From NCBI GenBank assembly GCA_016432365.1, contig CP066686.1:874918-938917 (forward strand): DNA of 64,000 nt. The letters are read 5' to 3'. Source of the DNA: Candidatus Woesebacteria bacterium (GTDB lineage: Bacteria; Patescibacteriota; Microgenomatia; UBA8517). The notes under the pieces are model-generated. The model searched no databases, was not told where the DNA came from, and saw only the letters and a program-made list of their open reading frames with translations. Shown here in pieces: positions 19,381-53,177 of this stretch. The position numbers were made by a program, and so were the translations under genes. The number at the start of each line of letters is the position of its first letter. Position 1 is the stretch's first letter.

Positions 19381-19381
19381 T

Positions 19382-41105: not shown

Positions 41106-43235
41106 ATGGACAAGCTTCAAAAAACAATTTTCGTCTTTTTTGCAATTCTTTTTTTCTTCGTTCCTTTAGTTTTATGGCCGTATACATCTGAGGTTTTTGA
41201 ATTCAACAAAATAGTTTTGGTATACGGATTAACCGTATTAATTACCGGCACCTGGGTAATCCGGATGATTCTGGAAAGAAAAATTATCTTTCGTCGCACA
41301 ATATTAGATATTCCGCTTTTAGTTTTTTTTGCTTCGCAGTTAATTTCGACCCTCCTCTCGATAGATCCATCGACATCATGGTTCGGATATTATTCAAGAT
41401 TTAACGGCGGACTATTGTCTACTATTTCCTATACCCTACTTTACTGGACATTTGTAAGTAATTTAGACCGAAAGCATACCCTACGTATTCTATATACCGT
41501 TCTGTGTTCTGCCGCTATCGTTTCAATATATGGTGTATTAGAACACTGGGGCATTGACAAAGCTCTCTGGGTACAAGATGTTAAGTCCCGTGTCTTTTCC
41601 ACTCTTGGACAGCCAAATTGGCTGGCGGCATATGTCGTAGCGCTCCTGCCCATCACTTGGGCACTCGCGCTAGAAAAATCTCAAATCTCAAATCCGAAAT
41701 CACAAACAAATTCTAAATTCTTAATATATTTCTCGCTTTCGGTTTTGTTTTTCTGGACATTAATTTTTACAAAGTCTCGTTCTGGTCTTTTAGGCCTTGG
41801 GGTTGCTTTCATAATATTTTGGGCTGGATACTTTTGGATTAACCGATTAAAAATTAAAAATATTATGTTTCCGTTTGCAATTATTACTTCTTCATTATTA
41901 ATTATTTGTTTAATCTCCGGCACCCAGTTCACTCCAAGTATTTCCGACCTATTAAACAAATCAAGGATGGCTTTGCCCTCCAAAGCTTTAGCGTCGGAGG
42001 GTCCAGCTCTTGAGGTTGGTGGAACTGAATCCGGCACTATACGTAAAATCGTTTGGACAGGGGCTGTCGAGGTCTGGAAACACTATCCAATTTTTGGGAC
42101 AGGGGTAGAAACATTTGCTTTTTCATACTATCAATATAGACCTGTTGAACACAACTTAGTTTCCGAATGGGATTTTATTTACAACAAAGCACACAACGAA
42201 TATCTTAACATTGCAGCCAATAGCGGATCGTTTGGTTTATTAAGCTATCTTATTTTGATAGGATTTTCAATTTATCAAACATCGCAAGTCAAAAATCAAA
42301 ATTTAGAAGTCAAAAATACAAGTAAAAATTCAAAAATAGAAAGCCAAAACTTTTCACTTTTGAATTGTAATTTTGACTTTTGCCTTTTGAATTTTGCATT
42401 ATTGGCAGGTTATGCAAGTCTCCTAATAACTAATTTTTTTGGCTTTTCGGTCGTTCCAACTCAACTTCAATTATTTTTATTTCCGGCGATAGCTGTGATA
42501 TTAAGTACTAATGAAGAATTAAGAATTAAGAATGAAAAATTTGGGACGCGAACAAATTTTCAAAAACTTGGCTACGTCTCAGTCATATTTCTTATTTCTT
42601 ATTTCTTATTTCTTATTTCTCGCTATTGGTACGCCGACACTCAATATGCTTTGGGTAAGGCATATAACGGCATTCAGAGACAAGACGTTGCCGCGAATTA
42701 TTTAATCCAAGCAGTTAACATTGAGCCCTGGCAACCGCTTTATCACAGCGAGTTGGCAAATTCATACGCGGCCATAGCTTTGGCCCTATACAACCAAAAA
42801 GACGCAGAAAATTCAAAGAAGTATACGGAGCTTGCAATTAGCGAATCCGACAGGTCTATCAACCTTTCTTCTTCTCTGAATTTAAAAAGGTCCCGTTTTG
42901 GCGTTTTTGTAGTACTTTCGACAACAAATCCAGATTACCTCCGTGCCGCCCAAGAAACATTGATTGGTGCCATAACACTTGCCCCAACCGATGCTAAACT
43001 TTATTACAATTTAGCCTTAACCTACGCAAGAACAAACCAACCCGACCGCGCGATGGAGGTTTTAATTAATACAATCGGTTTAAAAGCAAATTACAGGGAT
43101 GCAAGGCTGGCATATGCGTACCTTTTAATGGAGAAGAAAGAATACTCCGAGGCCAAAACTCAGCTCACTTACATTCTTAAATATATCGATCCGAACGACC
43201 CACTCGCCAAACAGGCGCTTGAGGGTATAAAATAA
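41106..43235 (+). CDS. O-antigen ligase (Wzy_C) family membrane protein fused to C-terminal TPR repeats
   Basis: Ten or more TM helices in the first about 390 aa, a low-complexity insert (QNLEVKNTSKNSKIESQNF...) and C-terminal TPR-like repeats (ALGKAYNGIQRQDVAANYLIQAV...). Confidence 0.6.
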   Translation: MDKLQKTIFVFFAILFFFVPLVLWPYTSEVFEFNKIVLVYGLTVLITGTWVIRMILERKIIFRRTILDIPLLVFFASQLISTLLSIDPSTSWFGYYSRFNGGLLSTISYTLLYWTFVSNLDRKHTLRILYTVLCSAAIVSIYGVLEHWGIDKALWVQDVKSRVFSTLGQPNWLAAYVVALLPITWALALEKSQISNPKSQTNSKFLIYFSLSVLFFWTLIFTKSRSGLLGLGVAFIIFWAGYFWINRLKIKNIMFPFAIITSSLLIICLISGTQFTPSISDLLNKSRMALPSKALASEGPALEVGGTESGTIRKIVWTGAVEVWKHYPIFGTGVETFAFSYYQYRPVEHNLVSEWDFIYNKAHNEYLNIAANSGSFGLLSYLILIGFSIYQTSQVKNQNLEVKNTSKNSKIESQNFSLLNCNFDFCLLNFALLAGYASLLITNFFGFSVVPTQLQLFLFPAIAVILSTNEELRIKNEKFGTRTNFQKLGYVSVIFLISYFLFLISRYWYADTQYALGKAYNGIQRQDVAANYLIQAVNIEPWQPLYHSELANSYAAIALALYNQKDAENSKKYTELAISESDRSINLSSSLNLKRSRFGVFVVLSTTNPDYLRAAQETLIGAITLAPTDAKLYYNLALTYARTNQPDRAMEVLINTIGLKANYRDARLAYAYLLMEKKEYSEAKTQLTYILKYIDPNDPLAKQALEGIK
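42285..42395. repeat. interspersed repeat, family B, copy 2, in-frame inside CDS 41106..43235
   Basis: gaagtcaaaaatac...cttttgaattgtaattttgacttttgccttttgaattttgc. The same family as 19311..19380, with a roughly 40-bp internal expansion. Confidence 0.6.
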
Positions 43236-43335
43236 ATCAGCCACATCAGAAAAGTTCAGAGATGTCAGAGGGGCTTGCCGGCAGGAATTCATCCAAATTA
43301 TTCTGATTTATCCGACCCTCTGGTATAATTCGTGT

Positions 43336-43881
43336 ATGATCAGAAAAATAGTTCAGTCCGGCGACCCGATTTTAAGACGAAAATCCAAAAACATTGCCAA
43401 GGTGGACAAAAAGGTTTTGGATATAATTAAGGACCTTAAAGATACTCTAAAAATTCAAAAGGAGCCGGAGGGCGTAGGACTTGCGGCCCCACAAATTGGG
43501 AAAAATCTAAATATTTTTATTGCGGATTACAAAAATTTTCAAAGGGTGGTAATAAACCCTGAAATACTAAAAATGAGCGAAAAGCAACCCCGCTCCGCCA
43601 AGGCTACGCGGGGCAAGAAAACTAATAAGGAAATACTTGAAGGCTGTTTATCGCTTCCCTATTATTACGGACCACTAAAACGGGCAGATAAAATTACAGT
43701 TAAATATCTAAACGAAAAGGGAGTAGAAATTACAGAAGATTTCGAAGGTTTTGACGCTCAAATAATCCTTCATGAAATTGACCATCTTAACGGCACCCTG
43801 TTCATCGACAGGCTTTTTGAAGAAAAAAAACCCTTGTATAAAGTTGATGGAGATGAATGGGAGGAGATAGAACTCGTATGA
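43336..43881 (+). CDS. def: peptide deformylase
   Basis: GVGLAAPQIG, EGCLS, HEIDHLNG motifs. Confidence 0.9.
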   Translation: MIRKIVQSGDPILRRKSKNIAKVDKKVLDIIKDLKDTLKIQKEPEGVGLAAPQIGKNLNIFIADYKNFQRVVINPEILKMSEKQPRSAKATRGKKTNKEILEGCLSLPYYYGPLKRADKITVKYLNEKGVEITEDFEGFDAQIILHEIDHLNGTLFIDRLFEEKKPLYKVDGDEWEEIELV

Positions 43882-44726
43882 AAATAGTTTTCTTTGGCAC
43901 ACCGGATTATGTTCTGCCTGTTCTCACCACCCTTCACAAAAAATTTGTGTCCGGCCCCGGAAAGTCTCCAATTGTTGCTGTAGTGACCCAAAGTCCCAAA
44001 CCAACCGGCAGAAAACAATATCTAACATATTCTCCCGTAGACAAATGGGCCCACGAACGTAAAGTTTTTACACATTATTCGGCCGAAGAACTAATTGATG
44101 CCAATCTTGATATGGAAGTTGGAATTTTGGCTTCCTACGGAGAAATCATCAAAAAGGAAGTAATAGACCTGTTTCCTAAGGGAATACTAGTAATCCATCC
44201 GTCTCTTTTGCCAGCATATAGAGGCGCTTCCCCAATTCAAGCGGCAATCGCAAACGGAGACACTCAAACCGGCGTTACTATATTCAAGATGGATGAAAAA
44301 GTGGACCACGGCCCGATAATTACTCAGTTTAAAGAAGAAGTCCTTCCTGATGATACATTTGAAACTCTTCGAACAAGACTTTTTGAGAGGTCGGCAGAGG
44401 TTTTGACCGAAATGATCGAGCCCTATCTTAAAGGGAAAATTACTCCCAAAACTCAAGATGAAACTGATGCCACATATACCAAAATTGTAAAAAGAGAAGA
44501 TGGATTTATAGATCTCAAAAAAGACAGTCCGGAAAAAATTGAGAGACTATCCAGGGCAATGTATCCCTGGCCCGGTATCTGGACTTATTTGCCTAACGAA
44601 AAACGTCTAAAAATTCTTAAATGCCACCTCGAAAATGGTAAGTTGATTCTTGATGAAGTCCAGTTGGAGGGCAAAAATCCTGTCAGTTGGAAACAATTCG
44701 AAGAAGCCTACAAGGCAGAACTCTAA
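43878..44726 (+). CDS. fmt: methionyl-tRNA formyltransferase
   Basis: MKIVFFGTPDY N-terminus; formyltransferase HPSLLPAYRG...; C-terminal domain. 4-nt overlap with def. Confidence 0.85.
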   Translation: MKIVFFGTPDYVLPVLTTLHKKFVSGPGKSPIVAVVTQSPKPTGRKQYLTYSPVDKWAHERKVFTHYSAEELIDANLDMEVGILASYGEIIKKEVIDLFPKGILVIHPSLLPAYRGASPIQAAIANGDTQTGVTIFKMDEKVDHGPIITQFKEEVLPDDTFETLRTRLFERSAEVLTEMIEPYLKGKITPKTQDETDATYTKIVKREDGFIDLKKDSPEKIERLSRAMYPWPGIWTYLPNEKRLKILKCHLENGKLILDEVQLEGKNPVSWKQFEEAYKAEL

Positions 44727-45272
44727 TTAATTTTGATTGACCAAACTCTGAAGTTGATCCAATACTTCCCCCAATATTGGACCATGAGTTGTTGCCAATT
44801 TATCACTCGAACTAAAATATCTCACTAAAAAAGCTTTCCATGAGGGACCAGATTTAGAAACCATATCCACACCCCATCCAAAAGCATTATAACGCTCCTC
44901 GAACCACTCTTTGGCCCCAGACTCGTCGGGTACCGACATGCCGACAGTTGGATCATTTATGTCAAACCTTTGCCCAACAATCTTCGCTCCCTTAATCCTC
45001 GCCGCATAGTTACTTTTCTCTTCGTCGTCAATCAAAGTTTGTACCTCCAAAATCAAAGATTCCCCGATAGACCCATTCGCCAGCAAAACTTCCAATTTTG
45101 ACTTACCGGTTTGCGAGTGAAATAAAACCGATTTTAAATAACCCTCTGAACTAATCAGTGCAAAAATCGCTTCAGCTTGTGAAATTTGCTCTTCTGTTGG
45201 TGTGTTCTCCTGAGCTTCAGATTTCACCTTAGTTAGTATAGAGTCTACAAGTTGCTGATGTGTTTCTTTCAT
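44727..45272 (-). CDS. hypothetical protein (181 aa)
   Basis: ORF only. Confidence 0.3.
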   Translation of the reverse strand: MKETHQQLVDSILTKVKSEAQENTPTEEQISQAEAIFALISSEGYLKSVLFHSQTGKSKLEVLLANGSIGESLILEVQTLIDDEEKSNYAARIKGAKIVGQRFDINDPTVGMSVPDESGAKEWFEERYNAFGWGVDMVSKSGPSWKAFLVRYFSSSDKLATTHGPILGEVLDQLQSLVNQN

Positions 45273-45352
45273 GCGGCAATTCTACTACTACCTATAGGCT
45301 ATGTCAAACATAAGAAATTGTAGCAAATCAGTCTCAATCCGCCAAATTATCG

Positions 45353-45613
45353 TCAAATACTTGCAGAGATAGAAGTCGAACGCTTTGGAGCTAATTTACC
45401 GACATTCTTAAATTTACTAATACAGTCGGTACAAAGCTTCATTTGAGACTTTTTGCCATTGACCATAACAGCTATCTTTTGGAGATTGGGTTTAAATTTT
45501 CTAAGTGTTACCTCTGCCCTCTTTTTCCAACGTTTACCGGCAACCCCTCTGTGATGAGAGCTGGTTCTGCCTGAAACCGTTCCTTTTCCGCAATTGTCGC
45601 AAATATATGCCAT
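45353..45613 (-). CDS. rpmB: 50S ribosomal protein L28 (zinc-ribbon form)
   Basis: CDNCGKG...GRTSSHHRG..KR.....LRKFKPNLQK; second Cys pair CTDC. Confidence 0.75.
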   Translation of the reverse strand: MAYICDNCGKGTVSGRTSSHHRGVAGKRWKKRAEVTLRKFKPNLQKIAVMVNGKKSQMKLCTDCISKFKNVGKLAPKRSTSISASI

Positions 45614-45683
45614 AAATTTAGTAGCTAGCAACTAGTGACTAGTAGCTAGGGATGAATTATACTATCAAAGACATATAAATTCA

Positions 45684-46325
45684 ATGGAAATATTATTAAT
45701 CATACTTGGAATTGCCGGACTGGCATACACAATAATTATCCACGAGGTCGCTCACGGTTGGATGGCTAACTACCTAGGCGATCCAACAGCACGGATATCG
45801 GGTAGATTAACCCTTAACCCAATTCCACACATTGACCCATTGGGAACTATAATTGTTCCGCTTCTAATGTATTTTTCCCCAGCCCACTTCGTTTTTGGGT
45901 GGGCAAAACCGGTACCCATTGACCCTTACAACCTTAAAAATCCAAAAAAGGATACTTTGCTCATTTCGCTGGCAGGACCTCTTTCCAATATGGTCTTAGC
46001 TTTGGTGTTAGCCGTCATTTTTTGGTTAATACCAATGCCTCAAATAATGGCAGATCTGGTAAAAACTATGGTTGGACTTAACGTAAGCTTGGCGGTTTTT
46101 AATTTGATTCCGATTTCCCCACTCGACGGAGAAAAAATACTTGTCGGGCTTTTACCCCACAAGGAAGCCAGAGAATTTGAATATTTTATGAGTAAATTCG
46201 GAATGATTTTACTGGCATTCTTAATATTTCCGATTTTTGGAGGTGTCTCCCTAATATCTCCGATTTTGTTCCCAATAATCAATTTTATATTGAATCTTCT
46301 AATACCAGGTTTCCCACGGTATTAA
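45684..46325 (+). CDS. site-2 protease family (M50) zinc metalloprotease
   Basis: HEVAHG zinc motif in TM1; multi-TM; LDGEK motif. Confidence 0.7.
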   Translation: MEILLIILGIAGLAYTIIIHEVAHGWMANYLGDPTARISGRLTLNPIPHIDPLGTIIVPLLMYFSPAHFVFGWAKPVPIDPYNLKNPKKDTLLISLAGPLSNMVLALVLAVIFWLIPMPQIMADLVKTMVGLNVSLAVFNLIPISPLDGEKILVGLLPHKEAREFEYFMSKFGMILLAFLIFPIFGGVSLISPILFPIINFILNLLIPGFPRY

Positions 46326-46644
46326 CTTTTTCATTTTTCACATTGACTTACGTGGTACAATTATATTGACCCTGTTAAAGAAGGATACGGTCGGAATTTC
46401 CTGATCAAGTATATTCTAAAATGGGAGGACGGAGTCCGTTAAGTAATGCGCAAGCTAGCTTAATGGCAGTTCACCCACCTGGTTTTTCCAGGAATATCGC
46501 CGTACTTTTGATAATGGGGTCATTTTTTGGCAAAAAACAGCTTCAATTTCTGATATAATTGGTTTTGATCCAAAATTGCTTGGCAATTTTGAGAGTGGAA
46601 GTTTCGACAGGCCGGGATAAGCGTAGCTTGTCCCCGCACTGCGT

Positions 46645-46716
46645 GCCGGGATAGCTCAACGGTGGAGCAACGCTTTTGTAAAGCGAAGGTTGAAGGTTCA
46701 AATCCTTTTCCCGGCT
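46645..46716 (+). tRNA. tRNA-Thr (anticodon TGT)
   Basis: Cloverleaf by hand: acceptor GCCGGGA/TCCCGGC, D-stem GCTC/GAGC, anticodon loop TTTGTAA, T-arm GAAGG-TTCAAAT-CCTTT. No CCA encoded. Confidence 0.8.
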
Positions 46717-46772
46717 CATAACAGTTCGCCGGTCGGATTTGATAGTGCCAAGATTGGTAGAGGCTTTGCACA

Positions 46773-46791
46773 CAAATCCTTTTCCCGGCTC
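46773..46791 (+). repeat. exact 19-nt duplicate of the tRNA-Thr(TGT) T-loop/3' acceptor end (caaatccttttcccggctc)
   Basis: Identical to 46699..46717 and lies 56 bp downstream of the tRNA. att-site-like footprint. Confidence 0.6.
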
Positions 46792-46839
46792 CCTAAACAC
46801 ACCTTTTTGGTGTACGATTAGCGCGTTGTATTAAAACAC

Positions 46840-46924
46840 GCTGAGGTGGCGGAGCGGTCAATCGCATCAGACTGTAAATCTGACGGCCGGAAGGCCTACA
46901 TAGGTTCGAATCCTGTCCTCAGCA
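46840..46924 (+). tRNA. tRNA-Tyr (anticodon GTA), class II with long variable arm
   Basis: Acceptor GCTGAGG/CCTCAGC, anticodon loop CTGTAAA, long variable arm, T-arm GGTTCGAATCC. Confidence 0.8.
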
Positions 46925-46930
46925 CATTTG

Positions 46931-47926
46931 TCATTTCTCCCACTCAGGCTGGGCGAAGTTTTGCATATAAATCGGAAGTTTTTCCTCCCCTATTAATTTC
47001 CTGTCACGATAAGTCAATTTCATAACAAGACCTCTTCTTGTTTCCTCACTCCACATCTGATCAAAAATAAAATTGCCAAGTGAATAATACACAGGTTTCC
47101 CGTTGATGTGATCAATTGATTGCACCCAATGCGGATGTGTCCCATACACAACATCCGCCCCCGCCCCCACTAGGTTTTTAGCTATTAGCTTTTGGCTTTT
47201 CGTTGGGTCTGTCGTGTATTCCAATCCCCAGTGCACAGCAACAATCAAAACATCCACCTTTTGTTTTGAATCAGAAGTTAATTGAAAGTCTTTATCCTTG
47301 GGAGCAAAATCAACGTAATCAAACCCCAAAAAACCAAATTTTGTACCATTTACTTCCTTAACCACCAAATTCCCGTCTCCGGTGTAATCTATCCCCGCCT
47401 TACTAAGAAAATTTTCAGTTTGAGATACCCCTTCTTTACCGTAATTTCCGGAGTGGTTATTGGCGATATTAACTACATCGATGCCTGCAAAAGTTAGGCC
47501 GTCAATCATTTTTGGATCCGCGCAAAATTTAAATCCCGAGCTTATCGAGGGACATTTTTCGATTATCGGATTTTCGAGATTGGCAAAAACAAGATCCGCG
47601 CCGGCAAGTGTGTCGCCAACTTTTAGAAATGGATAGGTGGGATCCCCTTTCTTCAAACTAACACCCATCACACTCCTCCCTAGCATGATATCCCCGGTTA
47701 AAAGTATAGAAATATCCTGCTTTCCGGAAAAATTGTTTACGAAGTTCTGGACCGAGTTGAGCTCAGTCCTGTTTTTAAGGTCCGGAGCCAGTACCGGTTT
47801 TGCAGAGATAACGTAAAGCAAAATTCCCAAAAAGCTTGCCGCAATTACCAAAATCCCCACCTGCCACCGATTCATGGTTTTAGTATACAGTTTGTGTATT
47901 GTATAATCATTGCTTGCGTCCCCCAC
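46931..47926 (-). CDS. CapA/PgsA-family metallophosphoesterase (poly-gamma-glutamate synthesis-like)
   Basis: N-terminal TM helix; GDIMLGR and GADLVFANLENP metallophosphatase motifs; NNHSGNYG; GTHPHW. Confidence 0.7.
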   Translation of the reverse strand: MGDASNDYTIHKLYTKTMNRWQVGILVIAASFLGILLYVISAKPVLAPDLKNRTELNSVQNFVNNFSGKQDISILLTGDIMLGRSVMGVSLKKGDPTYPFLKVGDTLAGADLVFANLENPIIEKCPSISSGFKFCADPKMIDGLTFAGIDVVNIANNHSGNYGKEGVSQTENFLSKAGIDYTGDGNLVVKEVNGTKFGFLGFDYVDFAPKDKDFQLTSDSKQKVDVLIVAVHWGLEYTTDPTKSQKLIAKNLVGAGADVVYGTHPHWVQSIDHINGKPVYYSLGNFIFDQMWSEETRRGLVMKLTYRDRKLIGEEKLPIYMQNFAQPEWEK

Positions 47927-48020
47927 AAAATTGCACGCAATTTTGAGAGGAGGAATAGCGAAACGGATAGATTTTGGCCTTTTAAGGCCAAATATCGCGA
48001 AGTGAAGCTTATTCCGACAA

Positions 48021-48092
48021 GCCTGGGTAGCTCAGTGGTAGAGCGCGTTCTTGGTAAGAACGAGGTCGTGGGTCCAATCCCCACCTCAGGCT
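48021..48092 (+). tRNA. tRNA-Thr (anticodon GGT)
   Basis: Acceptor GCCTGGG/CTCAGGC (one G-U), D-arm GCTCAGTGGTAGAGC, anticodon loop TTGGTAA, T-arm GTGGGTCCAATCCCCAC. Confidence 0.8.
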
Positions 48093-48120
48093 CAAAGATT
48101 GTGTCGTTCTCGGCTATGCC

Positions 48121-48171
48121 GTAAGAACGAGGTCATGGGGGTAGTCCCCACCTCAGGCTCAAAGATTGTGT
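48121..48171 (+). repeat. degenerate duplicate of the 3' half of tRNA-Thr(GGT) plus 12 nt of downstream flank
   Basis: gtaagaacgaggtcatgggggtagtccccacctcaggctcaaagattgtgt versus the original 48054..48104 (about 80% identity; the flank caaagattgtgt is identical). Confidence 0.6.
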
Positions 48172-48221
48172 ATTACACTCGCCCTTGTCGTTTGGTGTCA
48201 TGACTGGTAAAATACCCATGT

Positions 48222-48407
48222 ATGGCAAAAAAGGGCGCCCGAGAACTTGTTAGCATGATTTGTTCCGTATGTAAAAATCAAAATTACATTTCTACCCGGA
48301 ATAAAGTTAATATGGACGTAAAAGGTAAAGGTAAGCTCCAAATCAAAAAATATTGCAAATTTTGCCGAAAGTCTCAGCTTCACAAAGAGAGCTCCAAGCT
48401 CAAATAA
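48222..48407 (+). CDS. rpmG: 50S ribosomal protein L33 (zinc-ribbon form)
   Basis: MAKKG...CSVCKNQNY.STRNK.N...L...KYCKFCRK..LHKE. Confidence 0.8.
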   Translation: MAKKGARELVSMICSVCKNQNYISTRNKVNMDVKGKGKLQIKKYCKFCRKSQLHKESSKLK

Positions 48408-48459
48408 ACCTTACTTAGCTTTTGCCCACTCCCCTTGATATAATTAAACGTATCAATTT

Positions 48460-48533
48460 AGGGTCGTCGTTCAACGGCAGGACAGCGGTCTCCAAAACCG
48501 CTAATGATGGTTCGATTCCATCCGACCCTGCCA
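48460..48533 (+). tRNA. tRNA-Trp (anticodon CCA)
   Basis: Anticodon arm GCGGT-CTCCAAA-ACCGC, T-arm GGTTCGATTCC, acceptor AGGGTCG/CGACCCT, encoded CCA. Confidence 0.75.
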
Positions 48534-48573
48534 CATTTAGTTCACTTAGTTACGAACGTGGCTGGCCATGTAA

Positions 48574-49005
48574 ATGAAAGAAGATAAGGTGTGTTATAAT
48601 TTATCAGATAGAAACATGGTAGATACACAAATCGAGCAAGCTGGTGGAAATGAAATAAAACAAGCCCCTCCTCATTACGTAATCACAGTAGAAGATTTTT
48701 ATAGCGGTCACTATGCCGACAAAATAACACAAGGTGAGTGTGTGGTAGGCAAACTCTTCGGTGAGCCAAAAAGAGAAGATTATGATTCTGAGGCTGAGTA
48801 TCAAAGTAATCAAGCCGCTTTTGACCTCGTTATAAAAATAAATCCTACAGGAAATTTACAAACTTTTAATACGGTTGAAAAACAAGGTGATTACTATTTA
48901 ATGACATCTTTTGATAAAAGTGGTGGTGTTGGAACAATGCCAATGAGCGGAGACGAAAAACTTCTTGTATTTTCAAGGACTCCAAAATTATCTTCAGGTA
49001 GTTAG
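48574..49005 (+). CDS. hypothetical protein (143 aa)
   Basis: ORF. Its 3' end lies inside direct-repeat copy DR34-1. Confidence 0.35.
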   Translation: MKEDKVCYNLSDRNMVDTQIEQAGGNEIKQAPPHYVITVEDFYSGHYADKITQGECVVGKLFGEPKREDYDSEAEYQSNQAAFDLVIKINPTGNLQTFNTVEKQGDYYLMTSFDKSGGVGTMPMSGDEKLLVFSRTPKLSSGS

Positions 49006-49025
49006 AAACTAAAAATTTGCCATTT
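48992..49025. repeat. direct repeat DR34 copy 1 (cttcaggtagttagaaactaaaaatttgccattt)
   Basis: 32/34 identical to 49701..49734. The pair brackets CDS 49041..49652. Confidence 0.7.
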
Positions 49026-49040
49026 GCAGAGTAGCAACCC

Positions 49041-49652
49041 CTACTTTACAACCCTCATTCTGCTTGTCGGTATATTCTCCGGGATCAGAATTTCTGGTAA
49101 ATTAAAATCCCCATAATCGCCTTCACTCCCATCGTGCCCTTCCTTTAGATATTCGGATAAAGGTTTCGCTGTTTCCCAGTAACTTTTTGCGTATGATCTA
49201 GCCGCTTCTAATCCAAAACCCTCCAAATAAGAATCGGCCTCGGTATAATACTCGCCTTCTGCTACGACCGCATTTTGCATTTTCGGATCTATCATGGCTT
49301 CAACAATCACACTTTTTTTGGGGTCGTATGACAAACCCACATTAAACCTATCCGGTCGCCTTGGAAAAGCAAAAACACGTTTAGTTCTATCGACGCCTAC
49401 ACCCATATCCTGTGCCGTTTGATTAAATATTTCCTCAAGTTTTTGTTGTCGCCCGTTCATTCGATTATCTTCAACACGAAAACCATTATCAGCGACATGC
49501 TGCAAACTTTCTTTGCTTACTAGGATGTATACAGGGATAAACCCTTTTGGAATCTCACCGAAATCTCTCAAGGAAAATGGGATCTCATTTTTTGTGGATA
49601 GATTTTGATTATGCGTTTCTAACCCGTCGGCCTCAAGAGCATCAGCATTCAT
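49041..49652 (-). CDS. hypothetical protein (203 aa)
   Basis: ORF flanked by the DR34 pair. No motif recognised. Confidence 0.35.
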   Translation of the reverse strand: MNADALEADGLETHNQNLSTKNEIPFSLRDFGEIPKGFIPVYILVSKESLQHVADNGFRVEDNRMNGRQQKLEEIFNQTAQDMGVGVDRTKRVFAFPRRPDRFNVGLSYDPKKSVIVEAMIDPKMQNAVVAEGEYYTEADSYLEGFGLEAARSYAKSYWETAKPLSEYLKEGHDGSEGDYGDFNLPEILIPENIPTSRMRVVK

Positions 49653-49700
49653 ATTTTAACTATACATTATGAAGGCTGTAGCTCAAATTGTTTTAGATAC

Positions 49701-49734
49701 CTTCAGGTAGTTGGAAACTAAAAATTTGCCACTT
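49701..49734. repeat. direct repeat DR34 copy 2
   Basis: cttcaggtagttggaaactaaaaatttgccactt. Preceded by a 13-codon remnant ORF (MKAVAQIVLDTFR*). Confidence 0.7.
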
Positions 49735-49764
49735 TTCCGAGGGATTTCCATCCAGACCCGCAAA

Positions 49765-50322
49765 CTATTTAGGCAAGAAAAGGAAATCAACCAAGGTTTT
49801 TATTTGTTCTTCTATGTTTTGAGTTCGTATTGAATTGTCTATAACAATTCTCTCCTCAATATCCATTGGACTGTCGACCTCTCTCGATATGTATTGGCCG
49901 TCGATATTTCCTTTTCCGGCAACTTCTTCTTCACAAACAACCTCAATCCAAACAACTTTCTTGTTATTTCTCTGGGCCAATCCTACCGCTTTTTGCCGAT
50001 ATTCCAACTTCGAAAAAGTCGCATCTAAAACAACAGAATGTGCCCCCTCATCAAATAGTTTTTGTGCATTATCAAGCATATCTTCTAGGGCTACTTCCGA
50101 GTGCCAAGGCTCATATTGAATTTCAGAAATTCTTTTTCGCCTAAATACGTCGCTAGACAGTGTTGGGGTTTCCAATCGAAGACTGATTTCGTTAGCTATT
50201 GTGGTTTTTCCTACACCAATTTTTCCAAACACAACCACAACAATAGGCTCGGAAACACTTATTCGTAATTCTTTTGATTCAAACCCCGTTGCTTTAACCT
50301 TCTCAATACCCATATGCAACAA
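49765..50322 (-). CDS. P-loop kinase, AAA_33 / polynucleotide-kinase-like
   Basis: VVVFGKIGVGKTT Walker A; D..F......R pattern resembling the T4 Pnk / zeta-like kinase domain; 185 aa. Confidence 0.5.
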   Translation of the reverse strand: MLHMGIEKVKATGFESKELRISVSEPIVVVVFGKIGVGKTTIANEISLRLETPTLSSDVFRRKRISEIQYEPWHSEVALEDMLDNAQKLFDEGAHSVVLDATFSKLEYRQKAVGLAQRNNKKVVWIEVVCEEEVAGKGNIDGQYISREVDSPMDIEERIVIDNSIRTQNIEEQIKTLVDFLFLPK

Positions 50323-50365
50323 TCATACCAAAATTGAGCAAGCTTTCGACTACACTTTACTCATT

Positions 50366-50415
50366 CCCAACTTTTTGGGCCAGGAGTCGCCCTTCGGAGT
50401 AATTATAAACATCAT
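50366..50415. repeat. direct repeat DR50 copy 1 (perfect 50-mer)
   Basis: cccaactttttgggccaggagtcgcccttcggagtaattataaacatcat. Identical to 51425..51474. Confidence 0.85.
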
Positions 50416-50534
50416 TTTTTATCAGTTGCGTCAAATCTTTGTACAACACTCCTAAAACCCCTGTCCACCTTTCTAACGGTTGGGGCACTCTATCTAATAT
50501 CAACTAAGGAATTTAGTCACCTGCCATAAACCAA

Positions 50535-51461
50535 TTGCACTCCAACAATTGTTTGTCAACGATTTCTAACAATTGGTATACTAGATTCTCCATGTCTGAT
50601 CGTCCACAACAAGAAAAGGAATTTCGAATACGACCGTCTTTATTCGATTCTTTAGACCTACTTCCGCAGACTCCAGAACAAGCCTTAAAGTTCGGTGCTG
50701 AGTATTACAAAGAATTTCTTGAACCGGTTCTTCCGGGACTGGCCAGCGAAGTTGCAAAAATTCAGCAAGAAACAGGTGTACCAAATGACAAAACAGCATG
50801 TGTCTTCTTGGAAAGAGACGCTAGGCCTGCAATGCTTGCCTGGCACGAACTCACGACAGGATCCTCCCTCACTTCACTTTCAATACCAATTTCTGCAACG
50901 CAAATGGACGAAATATTTGAACTTTACCCGCCGTTCGAAAATGCAAACCTTGGACTCATTAAAAATCCCGACGAATGGTCCCGAACTTGGGCACATGAGA
51001 TTGATCCACTTTTCCATTATTTTGGAAATTCCCAAAATTGGGTTGATGCTATACGCGAAAGTCACGGCAAAAAACTAGCTAATACTAAACTCATTAATGT
51101 TGTTGATATCGGATACCACGGCAGCGCCGTTGAAACTGGACGTTACTTACTAAAAAGGGCTTTTCCTGATAAAACAGTAAAATCAATTTTGCTTTATCGT
51201 TACTCAGACGAAATTCCTATACGGTGCGTCAAATCTGACGAAACTACATGGTACGCAGAAAAATCTATCCCCCATACAACATCCGGGTATGCTTTAAGTG
51301 CTGGTAAATACAGGTATCTAAGACCAGAGGCAACAAAAAATAGTATCGAAATTGAAAACCAGTTCTACCGCGGGGTTATTAAGGCAGCCAGAAAAGATAA
51401 AGAGAGATTTAGACTTTTGTCATCCCCAACTTTTTGGGCCAGGAGTCGCCCTTCGGAGTAA
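50535..51461 (+). CDS. hypothetical protein (308 aa; TTG start, or Met at 50592)
   Basis: ORF bracketed by the DR50 pair. Its last 12 codons lie in DR50 copy 2. Confidence 0.35.
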   Translation: MHSNNCLSTISNNWYTRFSMSDRPQQEKEFRIRPSLFDSLDLLPQTPEQALKFGAEYYKEFLEPVLPGLASEVAKIQQETGVPNDKTACVFLERDARPAMLAWHELTTGSSLTSLSIPISATQMDEIFELYPPFENANLGLIKNPDEWSRTWAHEIDPLFHYFGNSQNWVDAIRESHGKKLANTKLINVVDIGYHGSAVETGRYLLKRAFPDKTVKSILLYRYSDEIPIRCVKSDETTWYAEKSIPHTTSGYALSAGKYRYLRPEATKNSIEIENQFYRGVIKAARKDKERFRLLSSPTFWARSRPSE

Positions 51462-52086
51462 TTATAAACATCATCCTTTTGTCGGTAATAGTACGGGGCT
51501 TGGAAGTTCCCCCAACTTTAATCTCGTTCGAATCCCACCAGCGCCTTTGAAAATCCTTAATTCTAAATCTTCTGTCCACCCCTGCGAACTTATGGAACGG
51601 GTCAGCAATTCTTAAATAACCTCTGTTTTTATCTACACGGGTAACAACGCCGTAATGCCCATCGTCTTCGTCTGCATCCTCGTAAAAAACTCCCTGCCAC
51701 TCTACACCTACCGGAAATCCATATTTGTTTACAATTGTATCCAAGTCACTTATTTTAGAATTAGCTTTTTTCCAGAAAGAAAAACCACCTTTGCCGGCAA
51801 TTTTAGATGCCCTTGCCAAGTCTCTTACACTCATACCCCATTTTCTGATTTTCTTCTGGGCGCGAAGAGAGGCCACAATTCGTTTTTGAAAAACCTTTAC
51901 TCCCAGGAAGGAGAAAAGCATGGCAAGGACGGCAGGGCCACAGCTATAGATGTCTACCTGCTTGATCCTGGCCATTTTAGGGAGGGCAACCCCCTGAAGC
52001 CTGTCCTGTAAGGCCAAAAGACGCCTGACTACCGCCCGAACAGTCCTGTTGGTATTTATTTCCATTTGGCCCAATTGTACGGCCAT
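51409..52086 (-). CDS. papain-like cysteine peptidase, C39-like domain
   Basis: QVDIYSCGPAVLAMLFSFLG matches the Q...SCGPA.LAM catalytic-Cys motif of Peptidase_C39-like domains; downstream His/Asp candidates (DGHYGVV). True start may be the internal Met. Confidence 0.45.
   Translation of the reverse strand: MAVQLGQMEINTNRTVRAVVRRLLALQDRLQGVALPKMARIKQVDIYSCGPAVLAMLFSFLGVKVFQKRIVASLRAQKKIRKWGMSVRDLARASKIAGKGGFSFWKKANSKISDLDTIVNKYGFPVGVEWQGVFYEDADEDDGHYGVVTRVDKNRGYLRIADPFHKFAGVDRRFRIKDFQRRWWDSNEIKVGGTSKPRTITDKRMMFIITPKGDSWPKKLGMTKV
51425..51474. repeat. direct repeat DR50 copy 2
   Basis: Perfect 50/50 match to 50366..50415, with one further match 5 nt upstream. Confidence 0.85.
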
Positions 52087-52103
52087 TAGTCAAATTTGTC
52101 CAC

Positions 52104-53177
52104 CTATATATTTCTGGCGTATTTGGAAAGAAGACTTCCAATTGTTTCCGAAAACTCGACTCCATTCATCGACATTACCTCTGTCATCGGAAGACCTATG
52201 TCGGGCCCAAACGCTGTATTGGGATTACTGTCTGTAAAATACGGAATATGAGTATTTTCATCAACCCTTATATCAAACTTTGCATAATCTTTATGTTGTA
52301 ACCCTCCGAAAGCTCTCACCGCAAGTTTTTTGATTTCATACTTTAAACTTTCTTCAACGGGAACATATCTATATGCCCTTGCATCAGAATACGATTCAAA
52401 ACTTGTAAAAAAATGCTTTCCGTCCGGTTTTTTTCTAAATACTTTTTGGGCCATAAAGACATGACGTTTAACGTTGTCTTCAAAAACCACAACCGTAATT
52501 TCCGGCCCATCAATAAACTTTTCTACAATTACAGGAACTTTATAGGTTGAAACCATATGATTGACTCTTAGTTTAGCTGCTCTGTCTGTTTCTTTGACTG
52601 ATGTGTCATTTATACCAACGCTTCCCCCACCTTCATTTAATTTGACTATTAGAGGCAAGCCCAAATCTTCGTCGATGTTTGTTCCGGCGCGACGAATAAA
52701 CTGAAAAGGAGGAGTCGGAACATCGTAAGCCATAAGAAGTCTCTTTGTTAAGTTACGGTTATTACCAATAATTAAGCCTTCCATTCCGGCACCGGTATAG
52801 GGAATGTTGGCAAGCTCAAGAGCCGCCGGAACCGATGGCTGAAGCTGATCTCGACCTTTTAATGTATCAACAAGGTTAATGACCAGATCGGGTCTGTCCA
52901 CCAACAAGTTGGTATAAAAATATTGATCCCCGGGAAGGGTGCGAGTGGGAATTCCGAGTTTCCTAACTTCTTCTGATACCTCAATTGCCCTCGCTTCTAC
53001 TTCGATTTCGGCTTCATATGCATCTTTAGTAGCAAAATTCTCCCGTTCAACAGATGAGTAAGCCACAACAACCAGCCGGAATTTTTTGAGAGCCTCTTTA
53101 TCTACAGACAACTTAATGTTTTCCCTGGACGGAGATTTTTTTATTTCGACTTCTTCCTCGACTTTGGCAGTGGGCAT
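52104..53177 (-). CDS. D-alanine--D-alanine ligase family ATP-grasp enzyme
   Basis: Ddl-like central and C-terminal domains: NIPYTGAG, PLIVKLNEGGGSVGI, ARFDIRVDENTHIPYFTDSNPNTAFGP. Confidence 0.65.
   Translation of the reverse strand: MPTAKVEEEVEIKKSPSRENIKLSVDKEALKKFRLVVVAYSSVERENFATKDAYEAEIEVEARAIEVSEEVRKLGIPTRTLPGDQYFYTNLLVDRPDLVINLVDTLKGRDQLQPSVPAALELANIPYTGAGMEGLIIGNNRNLTKRLLMAYDVPTPPFQFIRRAGTNIDEDLGLPLIVKLNEGGGSVGINDTSVKETDRAAKLRVNHMVSTYKVPVIVEKFIDGPEITVVVFEDNVKRHVFMAQKVFRKKPDGKHFFTSFESYSDARAYRYVPVEESLKYEIKKLAVRAFGGLQHKDYAKFDIRVDENTHIPYFTDSNPNTAFGPDIGLPMTEVMSMNGVEFSETIGSLLSKYARNI

What the first reader, a model, noticed from the sequence alone, without database searches (positions are those of the whole stretch)
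48992..49734. 34-bp direct repeats flanking a 203-aa unknown gene, with a remnant mini-ORF
cttcaggtagttRgaaactaaaaatttgccaYtt occurs at 48992..49025 and 49701..49734, 32/34 identical. Copy 1 forms the 3' end (KLSSGS*) of the 143-aa gene. Copy 2 follows a 13-codon remnant ORF whose stop falls at the same place within the repeat. This suggests repeated recombination at a conserved gene-end sequence, or serial cassette insertion, each unit ending in the same motif in the way integron or att-type cassettes do.
Basis: seen in the sequence. Interest (0 to 1): 0.6.

Follow-up and report, generated by a model that had tools for sequence, protein, structure and literature searches.

The report
Duplicated gene end flanking inserted gene
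A 37-base copy of the end of one small gene reappears 709 bases later, bracketing a single orphan gene in a highly variable spot next to a tRNA gene of an uncultured Woesebacteria genome; it is best read as the scar of a recombination that slipped a gene in, which is a familiar kind of event and not an integron.

Summary
The repeat is real: 37 nt (48989-49025 / 49698-49734, 34/37 identical), with only two copies in 64 kb and none expected by chance. Independent assemblies reproduce it. Copy 1 is the authentic 3' end of gene A (143 aa). Copy 2 is an orphan, non-coding copy in which A's stop codon is TGG. The "13-codon remnant ORF" is in another frame, stops 4 nt earlier in the repeat and shows no similarity to A.

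The locus is a hypervariable islet between tRNA-Trp and two conserved genes (C39-like peptidase E, ATP-grasp F). None of 24 related Woesebacteria/Patescibacteria genomes carries A, B or D there. A second pair has the same architecture 0.6 kb away: 70 nt, the last 21 codons of E, flanking orphan gene D. Two tRNA-Thr genes nearby also have copies of their 3' ends.

There is no integrase or transposase in the window, no attC-like hairpin and no terminator.

Best reading: junction scars of recombination that added single genes to a tRNA-adjacent islet while preserving the resident gene's end. This could be att/Campbell-type insertion or homology-facilitated illegitimate recombination.

A-family genes elsewhere sit in repeat-bounded single-gene arrays with a precise junction polymorphism. 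An active cassette system therefore remains a minority possibility.

The parts
48460..48533 (+). tRNA-Trp (CCA). Its 3' end faces the variable islet and forms the islet's left border.
   Evidence: ARAGORN and Rfam at 60 bits. No second copy of its 3' end anywhere in the window.
48574..49005 (+). Gene A, 143 aa, function unknown. It belongs to a small Patescibacteria family. Its last 5 codons and stop lie in DR1a.
   Evidence: ORF. Four homologues at 57-73% identity with conserved core and C-terminus. No Pfam, PHROG, PADLOC or NCBIfam hit. Model pLDDT 75.5 with no significant fold match.
48989..49025 (+). DR1a: the native 3' end of gene A (15 nt of coding sequence, stop TAG 49003-49005, then 20 nt).
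   Evidence: Homology to the A' coding end in L006.
49041..49652 (-). Gene B, 203 aa orphan, the only gene between the two DR1 copies. Weak ADP-ribosyltransferase-like fold.
   Evidence: ORF. Only four homologues at 42-52% identity. Model pLDDT 77. Best Foldseek hits are DarT 7omv (prob 0.95, TM 0.37), pertussis toxin S1 and Tpt1/KptA, all weak.
49659..49686 (-). Promoter-like site for gene B (TTGAGC-16-TATAGT), inside the inserted segment.
   Evidence: Consensus scan. This is a pattern match only.
49669..49710 (+). 13-codon mini-ORF. It is a chance ORF and not a remnant of A.
   Evidence: Different frame and different stop position from A. No similarity to A.
49698..49734 (+). DR1b: an orphan, non-coding copy of A's 3' end. 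A's stop codon position reads TGG here.
49765..50322 (-). Gene C, a P-loop kinase (AAA_33, Pnkp-kinase-like). Its likely start is the ATG at 50313. DR1b and DR2a bracket it.
   Evidence: Pfam AAA_33 at 3.9e-12. NCBIfam bacter_Pnkp weak. Logan gene call of 182 aa.
50351..50420 (-). DR2a: an orphan copy of the last 21 codons plus stop of gene E (reads ...KMMFIITPKGDSWPKKLGMSKV* on the minus strand).
   Evidence: It also matches E of relative L012 at 91.8%.
50535..51461 (+). Gene D, 308 aa orphan (likely start ATG 50592). Its last ~17 codons are read from DR2b.
   Evidence: ORF. Seven cluster representatives; their conserved core ends near residue 290. Start context.
51410..51479 (-). DR2b: the native 3' end of gene E.
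   Evidence: A 50-nt identical core (50366-50415 in copy a) with all 6 mismatches in the margins, P about 0.002.
51409..52086 (-). Gene E, a C39-like peptidase. It is a conserved backbone gene and forms the islet's right border.
   Evidence: Pfam Peptidase_C39. 286 homologues. Syntenic in 24 relatives.
52104..53177 (-). Gene F, an ATP-grasp (D-Ala-D-Ala-ligase-like) backbone gene.
   Evidence: Pfam and NCBIfam. 67-96% amino-acid identity in relatives.
48054..48171 (+). The 3' half of tRNA-Thr(GGT) plus 11 nt, present twice (48054-48104 and 48121-48171; 51 nt, 90%).
   Evidence: No such extra tRNA 3'-end copy was found in 10 relatives.
46699..46791 (+). The last 19 nt of tRNA-Thr(TGT) (46699-46717), repeated exactly at 46773-46791.

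Best explanation
DR1 is a recombination-junction scar. It is not a functional motif and not an integron site. The stretch between tRNA-Trp (48533) and the stop of the conserved peptidase gene E (51409) is a hypervariable islet in a Candidatus Woesebacteria chromosome. DR1a is the authentic end of resident gene A: its last 5 codons, its stop and 20 nt beyond. DR1b is a displaced 37-nt copy of that end, and it marks the far junction of a 709-bp segment. That segment carries one gene, B, with its own promoter-like site. The most likely history is that B was added by a recombination that used the terminal segment of A as its crossover or anchor sequence. That would duplicate the segment and leave A intact. 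Two mechanisms fit: a Campbell-type single crossover of a small circular DNA carrying an A-end homologue (att-type or short-homology), or homology-facilitated illegitimate recombination after DNA uptake, with the illegitimate joint landing 15 nt before A's stop. The same thing happened at the other border, where the 1059-bp segment with gene D is flanked by two copies of the last 70 nt of E. What is shown: the repeat and its sharp limits; that copy 1 is native and copy 2 is an orphan with the stop lost; that B and D are real but rare genes; that the islet is hypervariable; the second pair with the same (mirror-image) layout; and the absence of any recombinase, hairpin or terminator. What is inferred: which gene was the newcomer, and which enzymes acted.
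For: The repeat is real, non-random and has sharp limits. It was assembled independently in two runs. A's C-terminus PKLSS and its DNA are conserved in the 73% homologue, so DR1a is native. In DR1b the stop is TGG and the upstream sequence is unrelated to A. The backbone CTP-transferase, F, E, [variable 0.36-4.4 kb], tRNA-Trp, rpmG is conserved in relatives. Nucleotide synteny with the closest relative L012 breaks exactly at E's stop and resumes at rpmG. A, B and D are absent from all 24 relatives, and the window's islet shares nothing with theirs. The second pair, DR2, has the same layout in mirror image: a resident gene end, then a convergent orphan gene, then a displaced copy of the end. 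D's conserved core stops just before DR2b, so D's tail is read-through into the duplicated E end. DR2's 6 mismatches all lie outside a 50-nt identical core (P about 0.002), as expected for a crossover between diverged homologous ends and not for uniform decay of a copy. Two nearby tRNA-Thr genes carry copies of their own 3' ends. This is the classical mark of recombination at tDNA ends and was not seen in 10 relatives. The principle is described in PMC4383910. DprA and RecR are encoded in the window, and homology-facilitated illegitimate recombination is an established route (PMC3240628).
Against: No empty site (A next to C, or E next to C) was found in any database, so the direction of the event is inferred. 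No circular or excised form is known. A 0.7-1.06 kb circle that carries one gene plus a copy of its future neighbour's end is an awkward intermediate. B homologues elsewhere are not flanked by repeats and are not next to A homologues. Both displaced copies flank gene C, which a single insertion of C explains with fewer events (rival 1). The mechanism rests on one genome. The rest of the 1.08-Mb contig could not be searched: the 26-mer search found nothing in the GTDB representative genomes or the JGI metagenomes, so this genome itself is evidently not in either collection.
Confidence: 0.45

Rival explanations
1. One-step insertion of gene C. A sister strain had the islet configuration A, then C, then E. 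A 723-bp piece of that strain (49698-50420) was inserted between divergent genes B and D of a strain with the configuration A-B-D-E. The piece consisted of C plus 37 nt of the donor's A end and 70 nt of the donor's E end. DR1b and DR2a would then be the ragged ends of one donor fragment. They would still be recombination scars, but C would be the newcomer.
For: Both orphan copies flank C and point toward it. Both pairs are about equally diverged, 3/37 and 6/70. DR2a differs from the window's own E at positions that also vary among E orthologues, and it shares two bases with L012's E, as expected for a foreign E allele. A C homologue lies downstream of E on the same strand in L035. This needs only one event.
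Against: A fragment whose two ends are homologous to A and E would be expected to replace B-D by double crossover, not to insert between B and D where it has no homology. No A-C-E or A-B-D-E genome was found. DR2a is still closest to the window's own E: 62/75, against 59/75 for L012.
Confidence: 0.2
2. An active att-type cassette array anchored at tRNA-Trp. A (48534-49022) and B (49023-49731) would be two single-gene cassettes. Each would end in the same roughly 34-nt recombination site, which finishes with TGCCA like tRNA-Trp itself. A recombinase encoded elsewhere would move them.
For: The closest A homologue lies in such units. L006 and L007/L008 come from three samples and are 100% identical from ...CCCGC|TCGG onward. 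Upstream of that exact point they differ: a tRNA/tmRNA-like 3' end in L006 and a 27-nt repeat element in L007/8. The same element follows A' and also the next ORF. L009 carries A' within 7 ORFs separated by 9 copies of a repeat that ends ...ACCC. A' directly follows tmRNA in L011, and B' directly follows tRNA-Gln in L003. DR1 and tRNA-Trp both end in TGCCA.
Against: The similarity between DR1 and the tRNA-Trp end is only 5 nt, and TGCCA occurs 8 times in 5 kb. The first ~11 nt of DR1 are A-family coding sequence. DR1b is therefore a copy of A's end and not an independent cassette site. An HMM of the L009 element does not hit DR1 or L006. There are only two copies. No recombinase was found in 64 kb. 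B homologues carry no such repeats. DR2 has an unrelated sequence.
Confidence: 0.15
3. A functional cis element repeated after genes: a terminator, or a promoter/UP element, or a small RNA, found downstream of the minus-strand genes B and C.
For: On the minus strand each copy lies 15-30 nt after a stop codon (B and C). The repeat contains a 5-bp palindrome, TAGTT-NNN-AACTA, and the one internal A/G difference falls in its loop.
Against: No terminator-like site on either strand. RNA and DNA folding are no better than shuffles, with z from 0 to +0.8. No Rfam hit. Only two copies in 64 kb and none in two public collections. Copy 1 overlaps coding sequence that is conserved for protein reasons.
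Confidence: 0.05
4. A classical integron or CALIN: gene cassettes separated by attC sites and moved by IntI.
For: One-gene units end in a shared motif. GTTAGAA/GTTGGAA in DR1 matches 6 of 7 positions of the R' consensus GTTRRRY (consensus from established knowledge).
Against: No IntI or any tyrosine recombinase in the window. No imperfect-palindrome hairpin and no R'' partner. Half of the repeat is coding sequence of A. There are only two copies.
Confidence: 0.01
5. The shared 3' end of two paralogous genes, with copy 2 as the last trace of a decayed A paralogue.
For: Copy 2 contains A's terminal codons.
Against: In-register identity upstream of the repeat is at background level. tblastn of A against 49026-49800 gives nothing better than E = 0.4. 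That space is occupied by the conserved gene B on the other strand.
Confidence: 0.02
6. Chance match, or a metagenome mis-assembly that joins two strain variants.
For: The source is a metagenome-assembled genome. Logan contigs break inside DR2a.
Against: 0 of 100 shuffles give a match. A k=31 de Bruijn contig from run SRR12113421 runs through both DR1 copies and both tRNA-Thr duplications with 0 mismatches, and a contig from a second run, SRR12113420, has the same gene order C-B-A. The break in DR2a lies 30 nt into a 50-nt exact repeat, as expected for a true repeat at that k.
Confidence: 0.03

Closest known systems
Genomic islands and prophages that integrate into the 3' end of a tRNA, tmRNA or protein gene and carry a replacement end (Islander principle, PMC4383910; e14 in icd, from my own knowledge)
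   Same: The target gene stays intact. A displaced fragment of its 3' end, including the stop, marks the far end of the inserted DNA. The locus lies next to tRNA genes, and those genes themselves show displaced 3' fragments.
   Different: The inserted segments are only 709 and 1059 bp, carry one orphan gene each and have no integrase. The target of DR1 is a small accessory gene, not the tRNA. No second copy of the tRNA-Trp end exists.
Homology-facilitated illegitimate recombination during natural transformation (PMC3240628)
   Same: It adds foreign DNA next to a homologous anchor and needs no mobile-element enzymes. This fits a genome that has DprA and RecR but no local recombinase, and it fits sharp, microhomology-poor outer junctions.
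   Different: The outcome I recall as usual (from my own knowledge, not checked in the paper) is replacement or deletion of recipient DNA, not a 37-70 nt duplication. Competence of this organism is not shown.
Integron cassette arrays and CALINs (attC plus IntI)
   Same: One-gene units, mostly orphan genes, each ending in a shared sequence. Related loci L006 and L009 show true repeat-separated one-gene arrays.
   Different: No IntI, no attC secondary structure and no R''/R' pair. The repeat is a copy of the neighbouring gene's end. There are only two copies.
tRNA-anchored variable islands of streamlined genomes built from tandem and degraded integrative elements (Prochlorococcus tycheposons, bioRxiv 10.1101/2020.12.28.424599; only the start of the abstract was seen here)
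   Same: A small streamlined genome with a hypervariable islet next to tRNA genes, partial tRNA repeats and cargo genes without their own recombinase.
   Different: No element-encoded integrase or transposase was found here. The repeats that bound B and D are protein-gene ends. Membership was not tested.
Neisseria 'minimal mobile elements': alternative cassettes between conserved flanking genes, exchanged by transformation and homologous recombination (from my own knowledge)
   Same: Conserved flanks (tRNA-Trp/rpmG and E-F) with unrelated cargo in each lineage.
   Different: Minimal mobile elements are replaced cleanly and leave no internal copies of the flanking gene ends.

Membership tests
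Integron / CALIN cassette array | Integron integrase (IntI, tyrosine recombinase) next to the array (not required for a CALIN) | tested here: not met
   Pfam scan of ORFs of at least 120 aa across the window (the longest of each overlapping set): no Phage_integrase or other recombinase hit.
Integron / CALIN cassette array | attC sites: imperfect inverted repeats (R''-L''...L'-R') that fold as single-stranded hairpins | tested here: not met
   DR1 copies folded as ssDNA give -2.8 and -3.7 kcal/mol, z +0.5 and +0.2. RNA folds are likewise no better than shuffles. Only a 5-bp palindrome is present.
Integron / CALIN cassette array | Core sites RYYYAAC ... GTTRRRY at the two ends of each site | tested here: not met
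   GTTAGAA/GTTGGAA matches 6/7 of R', but there is no complementary R'' box within the repeat.
Integron / CALIN cassette array | Several sites in the same orientation, one per cassette | tested here: inconclusive
   Two co-oriented copies 709 nt apart and no third even at 21/34 matches. The next repeat pair (DR2) has an unrelated sequence.
tDNA- or gene-3'-end-targeting integrative island (Islander definition, PMC4383910) | A regenerated target gene plus a displaced fragment of its 3' end bound the inserted DNA | tested here: met
   DR1a is the intact end of A and DR1b is a displaced fragment with the stop lost. DR2b and DR2a show the same for E.
tDNA- or gene-3'-end-targeting integrative island (Islander definition, PMC4383910) | An integrase gene inside the island | tested here: not met
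   The segments hold only B (no Pfam hit, ART-like fold) or D (no Pfam hit). There is no recombinase in the window.
tDNA- or gene-3'-end-targeting integrative island (Islander definition, PMC4383910) | The same element is found integrated or absent at the same site in other genomes | tested here: not met
   No empty site and no other occupied site were found: 24 relatives lack A, B and D, and B homologues sit in other contexts without repeats.
Transposon or insertion sequence with target-site duplication | Transposase, terminal inverted repeats and a short (2-15 bp) target duplication | tested here: not met
   No transposase hit. The listed inverted pairs with an arm in or near a DR1 copy (I10, I11) are 16 nt and 81% complementary, and neither lies at the two ends of 49026-49697. 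The duplications are 37 and 70 nt.
Paralogous gene ends / gene remnant | Similarity continues upstream of the repeat at DNA or protein level | tested here: not met
   Background identity upstream. tblastn of A against 49026-49800 gives a best E of 0.4.
Intrinsic terminator or structured RNA element | A stable G+C-rich hairpin followed by a U-tract, or a match to a known RNA family | tested here: not met
   0 terminator-like sites in 48400-52200. No Rfam hit other than tRNAs and a weak 6S match. Folding z-scores are about 0.
Homology-facilitated illegitimate recombination product | A donor-type sequence on the anchor side and a microhomology joint on the other, shown by comparing donor and recipient | not testable with these tools
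   Neither a donor nor a recipient genome is available. Only 2 nt (TA) are shared at the outer joint 49697/49698.

The most novel reading that the evidence does not exclude
Patescibacteria may have a cassette system of their own: promoter-bearing single-gene units stacked downstream of a tRNA or tmRNA gene. Each unit would end in an AT-rich imitation of that RNA gene's 3' end and would be exchanged by precise recombination at a core of about 5 nt. There would be no attC hairpins and no linked integrase. DR1 would be this genome's unit-end site (ending TGCCA, like tRNA-Trp), and A and B would be two stacked units. The L006 versus L007/L008 junction polymorphism and the 9-repeat array in L009 are real observations that fit this. 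The link to DR1 is weak.
Probability: 0.15. Interest if true: 0.7.

Novelty: new member of a known kind. Interest (0 to 1): 0.3.

Why it matters
Taken alone, this is a small scar. It does show base by base how a streamlined, symbiont-like CPR genome with no visible mobile-element enzymes nearby still gains orphan genes. Single genes are slotted in next to a tRNA cluster while the resident gene ends are preserved, and the displaced copies left behind date and delimit each event. If the repeat-bounded one-gene arrays around A-family genes in other Patescibacteria prove to be an active system, they would be an integron-like gene-capture platform in a phylum where none has been described to my knowledge. 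One literature search found no paper describing integrons of Patescibacteria.

Tried and rejected
1. Chance was rejected.
2. Assembly artefact was rejected: the Logan contig is identical over 42591-50395, and a second run shows the same order.
3. A paralogue or remnant gene was rejected.
4. Terminator, promoter or structured RNA: no support.
5. Integron: no IntI, no hairpin, no R''.
6. A wider search for the repeat, using a 26-mer core against GTDB representative genomes and JGI metagenomes, gave 0 hits in each. The source MAG is evidently not a species representative, so the rest of its 1.08-Mb contig stayed unsearched.
7. The search for an empty site or other contexts found none. The exact proteins A and B occur only on the same contigs. 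A-family loci in JGI metagenomes gave only two weak hits. IMG/VR has no relatives of A, B or D.
8. B and D are not related to each other.
9. I first read DR2a as a recent intragenomic copy of E's end, because it shares one lineage-specific base with the window's E. I withdrew this after aligning 24 orthologues. The mismatches cluster in the margins and two of them agree with L012, so a diverged E allele or a crossover between diverged ends is more likely.
10. A resemblance between A's last 43 nt and tRNA-Trp from the anticodon loop to CCA (CTCCAAAA ... TGCCA at the same spacing) was considered and set aside. CCAAAA encodes the conserved Pro-Lys of the A family.
11. The shared motif TAGTT-NNN-AACT between DR1 and the L006 element is not supported by profile search.
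12. The motif GA[AT]TTT(T)AGC[CT]TCA at unit starts is not specific to unit junctions. In two of eight occurrences a TATAAT box follows closely, and one of these lies just upstream of a tRNA gene. That suggests a promoter rather than a recombination site.
Full report
OBSERVATION. The repeat exists as described. The 34-mer occurs at 48992-49025 and 49701-49734 (32/34 identical). These are the only two matches in the window at up to 3 mismatches, and none appeared in 100 dinucleotide-preserving shuffles. The repeat finder extends it to 37 nt, 48989-49025 / 49698-49734, 34/37 identical. The mismatches are at 48991, 49004 and 49023. Its limits are sharp: in-register identity is 28/30 inside the repeat and 4-11/30 on both sides. 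Even at 21/34 matches there is no third copy in the 64 kb.

Copy 1 contains the last five codons and the stop of a 143-aa ORF, gene A (48574-49005). A 203-aa ORF on the minus strand, gene B (49041-49652), lies between the copies.

The 13-codon ORF (49669-49710) stops at TAG 49708-49710, which is repeat offset 8-10. Gene A stops at offset 12-14 (49003-49005). That position in copy 2 reads TGG, and the two ORFs are in different frames. The mini-ORF has no similarity to A and overlaps the promoter-like site of B. It is a chance ORF.

IS IT REAL DNA? The source is a metagenome-assembled genome, Candidatus Woesebacteria bacterium, locus tags HYV90_05185 and HYV90_05190, on a contig of 1,078,985 bp. 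A Logan contig from run SRR12113421 equals window 42591-50395 with no mismatch. A contig from a second run, SRR12113420, shows the same gene order C-B-A. A k=31 de Bruijn contig can pass copy 1, gene B and copy 2 only if the junction k-mers are present in reads. The first contig ends 30 nt into a 50-nt exact repeat (DR2, below), as expected for a true repeat at that k.

THE SURROUNDINGS. The order of features is as follows:
- tRNA-Thr(TGT) 46645-46717
- tRNA-Tyr
- a PGA_cap gene
- tRNA-Thr(GGT) 48021-48093
- rpmG 48222-48407
- tRNA-Trp 48460-48533
- gene A (+)
- DR1a
- gene B (-)
- DR1b
- gene C (-, 49765-50322), a P-loop kinase of the AAA_33 / Pnkp-kinase type
- a second repeat copy, DR2a (50351-50420)
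- gene D (+, 50535-51461), no family hit
- DR2b (51410-51479)
- gene E (-, 51409-52086), a C39-like peptidase
- gene F (-, ATP-grasp, D-Ala-D-Ala-ligase-like)

DR2 is 70 nt at 91% identity. DR2b is the native end of E. On the minus strand DR2a reads ...KMMFIITPKGDSWPKKLGMSKV*, a copy of E's last 21 codons and stop.

The DR2 layout mirrors that of DR1: a resident gene, its end, a convergent orphan gene, then a displaced copy of that end. D's conserved core ends near residue 290 in its seven known cluster representatives. Its last ~17 codons are therefore read-through into DR2b.

Two further gene-end copies lie within 3 kb. The 3' half of tRNA-Thr(GGT) plus 11 nt occurs twice (48054-48104 / 48121-48171; 51 nt, 90%). 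The last 19 nt of tRNA-Thr(TGT) recur exactly at 46773-46791. In one search, which reports repeats of at least 25 nt, DR1, DR2 and the tRNA-Thr(GGT) pair are the only closely spaced (67-1059 nt), two-copy direct repeats of distinct sequence in the 64 kb. The 19-nt tRNA-Thr(TGT) copy, seen, lies in the same region.

COMPARATIVE GENOMICS. E is a well-conserved Patescibacteria gene with 286 homologues. A scan of one genome per species found 24 loci. They share the backbone cytidylyltransferase, F, E, [variable stretch], tRNA-Trp, [variable], rpmG, tRNA-Thr/Tyr/Thr.

The closest relative is L012 (Woesebacteria GW2011_GWB1_39_10; E 88% amino-acid identity). It aligns with the window at 81.5% nucleotide identity through F and E. 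The alignment breaks exactly at E's stop (51409) and resumes only at rpmG.

The E-to-tRNA-Trp interval is 359 nt in L028, between 1.0 and 4.4 kb in the others, and 2875 nt in the window. By tblastx the window's interval shares nothing with any other. A, B and D are absent from all 24 loci, and a C homologue occurs only in L035.

None of the relatives has a copy of E's end in its interval. No extra tRNA 3'-end copy turned up in the 10 relatives checked. There is no compositional anomaly.

A, B, C and D are therefore lineage-specific cargo in a tRNA-adjacent hot spot. The four gene-end copies were found only in this genome.

THE GENES.
- Gene A has four homologues at 57-73% identity, all Patescibacteria. 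They share a conserved core and the C-terminus PKLSS. The DNA of the closest one (L006) is homologous to the window up to about 49002, which is inside DR1. DR1a is therefore A's own end, and DR1b contains a piece of A-family coding sequence.
- A's model (pLDDT 75.5) has no significant fold match.
- Gene B has four homologues at 42-52% identity. Its model has pLDDT 77.
- B's best Foldseek hits are all ADP-ribosyltransferase-fold proteins but weak: DarT 7omv (prob 0.95, TM 0.37), pertussis toxin S1, Tpt1/KptA and cholera toxin. A profile search of solved structures found nothing.
- A, B and D have no PHROG, PADLOC, NCBIfam or viral-contig relatives.
- B and D are unrelated to each other.

WHAT THE REPEAT IS NOT.
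- It is not the shared end of paralogues. tblastn of A against 49026-49800 gives nothing better than E = 0.4, and the space is filled by conserved gene B.
- It is not a terminator, a promoter or a known RNA. There are 0 terminator-like sites, folding is no better than shuffles as RNA or ssDNA, and there is no Rfam hit.
- It is not an integron. No integrase or other recombinase or transposase Pfam hit was found in any ORF of at least 120 aa in the window. There is no attC-like hairpin, no R'' partner for the GTTAGAA box, only two copies, and the neighbouring pair has another sequence.
- It is not a transposon target duplication. There is no transposase and no terminal inverted repeats, and 37 and 70 nt are far too long.

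MOST LIKELY MECHANISM. In both pairs the resident gene keeps an intact end, and a displaced copy of that end lies on the far side of a one-gene segment. This is the geometry produced when incoming DNA recombines through a sequence homologous to the end of a resident gene.

Integrative islands do this at tRNA, tmRNA and protein-gene 3' ends. [quoted passage not shown]

A Campbell-type single crossover of any small circle carrying such a patch would give the same result. So would homology-facilitated illegitimate recombination (PMC3240628), if the illegitimate joint falls a few codons upstream of the end of the anchor.

DR2 gives some mechanistic signal. All six mismatches lie in the margins around a 50-nt identical core (P about 0.002 for random placement). 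In the margins DR2a differs from the window's E where E orthologues also vary, and it agrees with L012 at two positions. This fits a crossover between two diverged E ends better than uniform decay of a recent copy.

The window encodes DprA and RecR, so uptake-and-recombination routes are plausible, though competence is not shown.

I put 0.45 on 'B (and D) were added by recombination that duplicated the resident gene end'.

RIVAL 1 (0.2). Both orphan copies flank gene C and are about equally diverged. One insertion of a 723-bp fragment (DR1b-C-DR2a) from a sister strain with islet A-C-E into a strain with A-B-D-E would explain both pairs in a single event. Against this, a fragment with two homologous ends should replace B-D and not insert between them. 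No such configurations were found either.

RIVAL 2 (0.15). The loci of A homologues gave an unexpected result.

L006, L007 and L008 come from three samples and encode the same 135-aa A'. They are 100% identical from ...CCCGC|TCGGTTCC... onward, but they differ upstream of exactly that point. L006 has a tRNA/tmRNA-like 3' end (GAGTTCGAGTCTCGTCGACCCCGC). L007 and L008 have a repeat element (AGTTCTAAACTTGTACCATGTAGCCCGC). The same 27-nt element follows A' and also the next ORF in L006, as exact copies at 704-730 and 1254-1280.

L009 carries A' among 7 small ORFs separated by 9 copies of an element that ends ...ACCC, after which the sequences diverge. In L011, A' begins 10 nt after a tmRNA gene (Rfam 154 bits). 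In L003 a B homologue begins 36 nt after tRNA-Gln.

So A-family genes, and perhaps B-family genes, do travel as small units stacked at tRNA-like 3' ends. In the window DR1 ends with TGCCA, as does tRNA-Trp. This would make A (48534-49022) and B (49023-49731) two stacked units.

The link is thin, for these reasons:
- The shared part is 5 nt, and TGCCA occurs 8 times in 5 kb.
- The left part of DR1 is A coding sequence.
- A profile of the L009 element hits neither DR1 nor L006.
- None of these elements folds as an attC-like hairpin.
- B homologues carry no flanking repeats.
- There are only two DR1 copies.

COMPARISON WITH KNOWN SYSTEMS AND NOVELTY. In function the locus looks like the junctions of 3'-end-targeting integrative elements, or of transformation-driven additions, in a tRNA-anchored variable islet. 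It fails the membership tests for integrons. It lacks the integrase required of a canonical island.

I class it as a new member of a known kind: recombination scars in a tRNA-adjacent hot spot. The unusual features are that the units are single orphan genes of 0.7-1.1 kb, and that four gene-end copies cluster in 5 kb of one lineage.

A specialist would not be very surprised, so I give it an interest of 0.3. The most novel reading still allowed is a Patescibacteria-specific array of one-gene cassettes anchored at an RNA-gene end, without attC or IntI. I give that about 0.15, and it would deserve about 0.7 if true.

LIMITS. No empty site, circle or sister strain was found. The 26-mer core of DR1 has no match in the GTDB representative genomes or in JGI metagenomes, so the rest of the source genome could not be searched. 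The direction of the events and the enzymes involved are inferred.

Noticed in passing
window 50351-50420 and 51410-51479: A second direct-repeat pair (70 nt, 91%, 50-nt exact core). It is a copy of the last 21 codons plus stop of the C39-like peptidase gene E, and it flanks orphan gene D. D's last ~17 codons are read from the repeat.
   Followed up: yes
window 48054-48104 / 48121-48171 and 46699-46717 / 46773-46791: Both tRNA-Thr genes are followed, 67-74 nt start-to-start, by a copy of their own 3' part (51 nt at 90%; 19 nt exact), enclosing no ORF. No such extra tRNA 3'-end copy was found in 10 related genomes. They look like att-type scars or empty units.
   Followed up: partly
L006 1-1300; L007 and L008 1-270: The same A-family unit has two different upstream neighbours, with the breakpoint exactly after CCCGC: a tRNA/tmRNA-like 3' end in one and a 27-nt repeat element in the others. 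The element recurs exactly after two successive ORFs. This is direct evidence of precise unit shuffling in a relative.
   Followed up: partly
L009 1-4882 (GCA_043825355.1, JBDRRZ010000101.1): A dense array of 7 small ORFs (one is an A homologue, one an inositol monophosphatase-like gene) separated by 9 copies of an element ...GTTC[GT]AAC...ACCC, with sequences diverging right after ACCC. No ssDNA hairpin, and no integrase on the contig.
   Followed up: partly
L003 930, L006 211 and 734, L009 145 and 1343, L025 8436, L022 10311; degenerate at window 48534-48545: The motif GA[AT]TTT(T)AGC[CT]TCA lies directly after tRNA(-like) 3' ends or unit junctions in six of eight occurrences. In two a TATAAT box follows closely, and one of those precedes a tRNA gene. 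It may be a Patescibacteria promoter element rather than a recombination site.
   Followed up: partly
L001 (reverse strand), downstream of tRNA-Trp 6568-6639: A partial copy of the tRNA-Trp 3' end (TTCGATTCC...CCCTCCACCCCTGC) lies about 190 nt downstream of the tRNA, in a locus that also carries a B homologue four genes further on.
   Followed up: no
window 49041-49652 and 49765-50322: Gene B models as a weak ADP-ribosyltransferase-like fold (DarT, pertussis toxin S1, Tpt1/KptA). The gene just upstream on the same strand (C) is a Pnkp-like P-loop kinase. This could be a toxin/defence or RNA-repair-type pairing. It was not tested.
   Followed up: partly
L017 149-203 / 304-358 and 2550-2604 / 2705-2759: Two pairs of perfect 55-nt direct repeats, each 155 nt apart, in a SPAdes-style contig of a relative. 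This is probably a k-mer-length assembly artefact, in contrast to the imperfect repeats in the window.
   Followed up: no
window 36740-37822, 18237-18875, 1772-2485: DprA and RecR are encoded in the window, and so is an AbiEii-type toxin. No integrase or transposase was found anywhere in the 64 kb.
   Followed up: yes
window 18332-18367, 19351-19386, 36021-36056, 42368-42403, 62310-62345; 17561-17674 versus 61865-61980: Families of AT-rich intergenic repeats (TTTTGACTTTTGAATTTTGA-like), and a 60-64 nt inverted pair 44 kb apart (73-80% complementary). Their nature is unknown.
   Followed up: no
window 15008-15168: Tandem 12/18-nt GCAGTAGC-type repeats inside the 403-aa ORF 14896-16107 (no Pfam hit). 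This is a low-complexity repeat protein.
   Followed up: no
window 46366-46524: A weak 6S RNA match (27.4 bits, below the gathering score of 46.4, E = 0.018) just upstream of the tRNA cluster.
   Followed up: no
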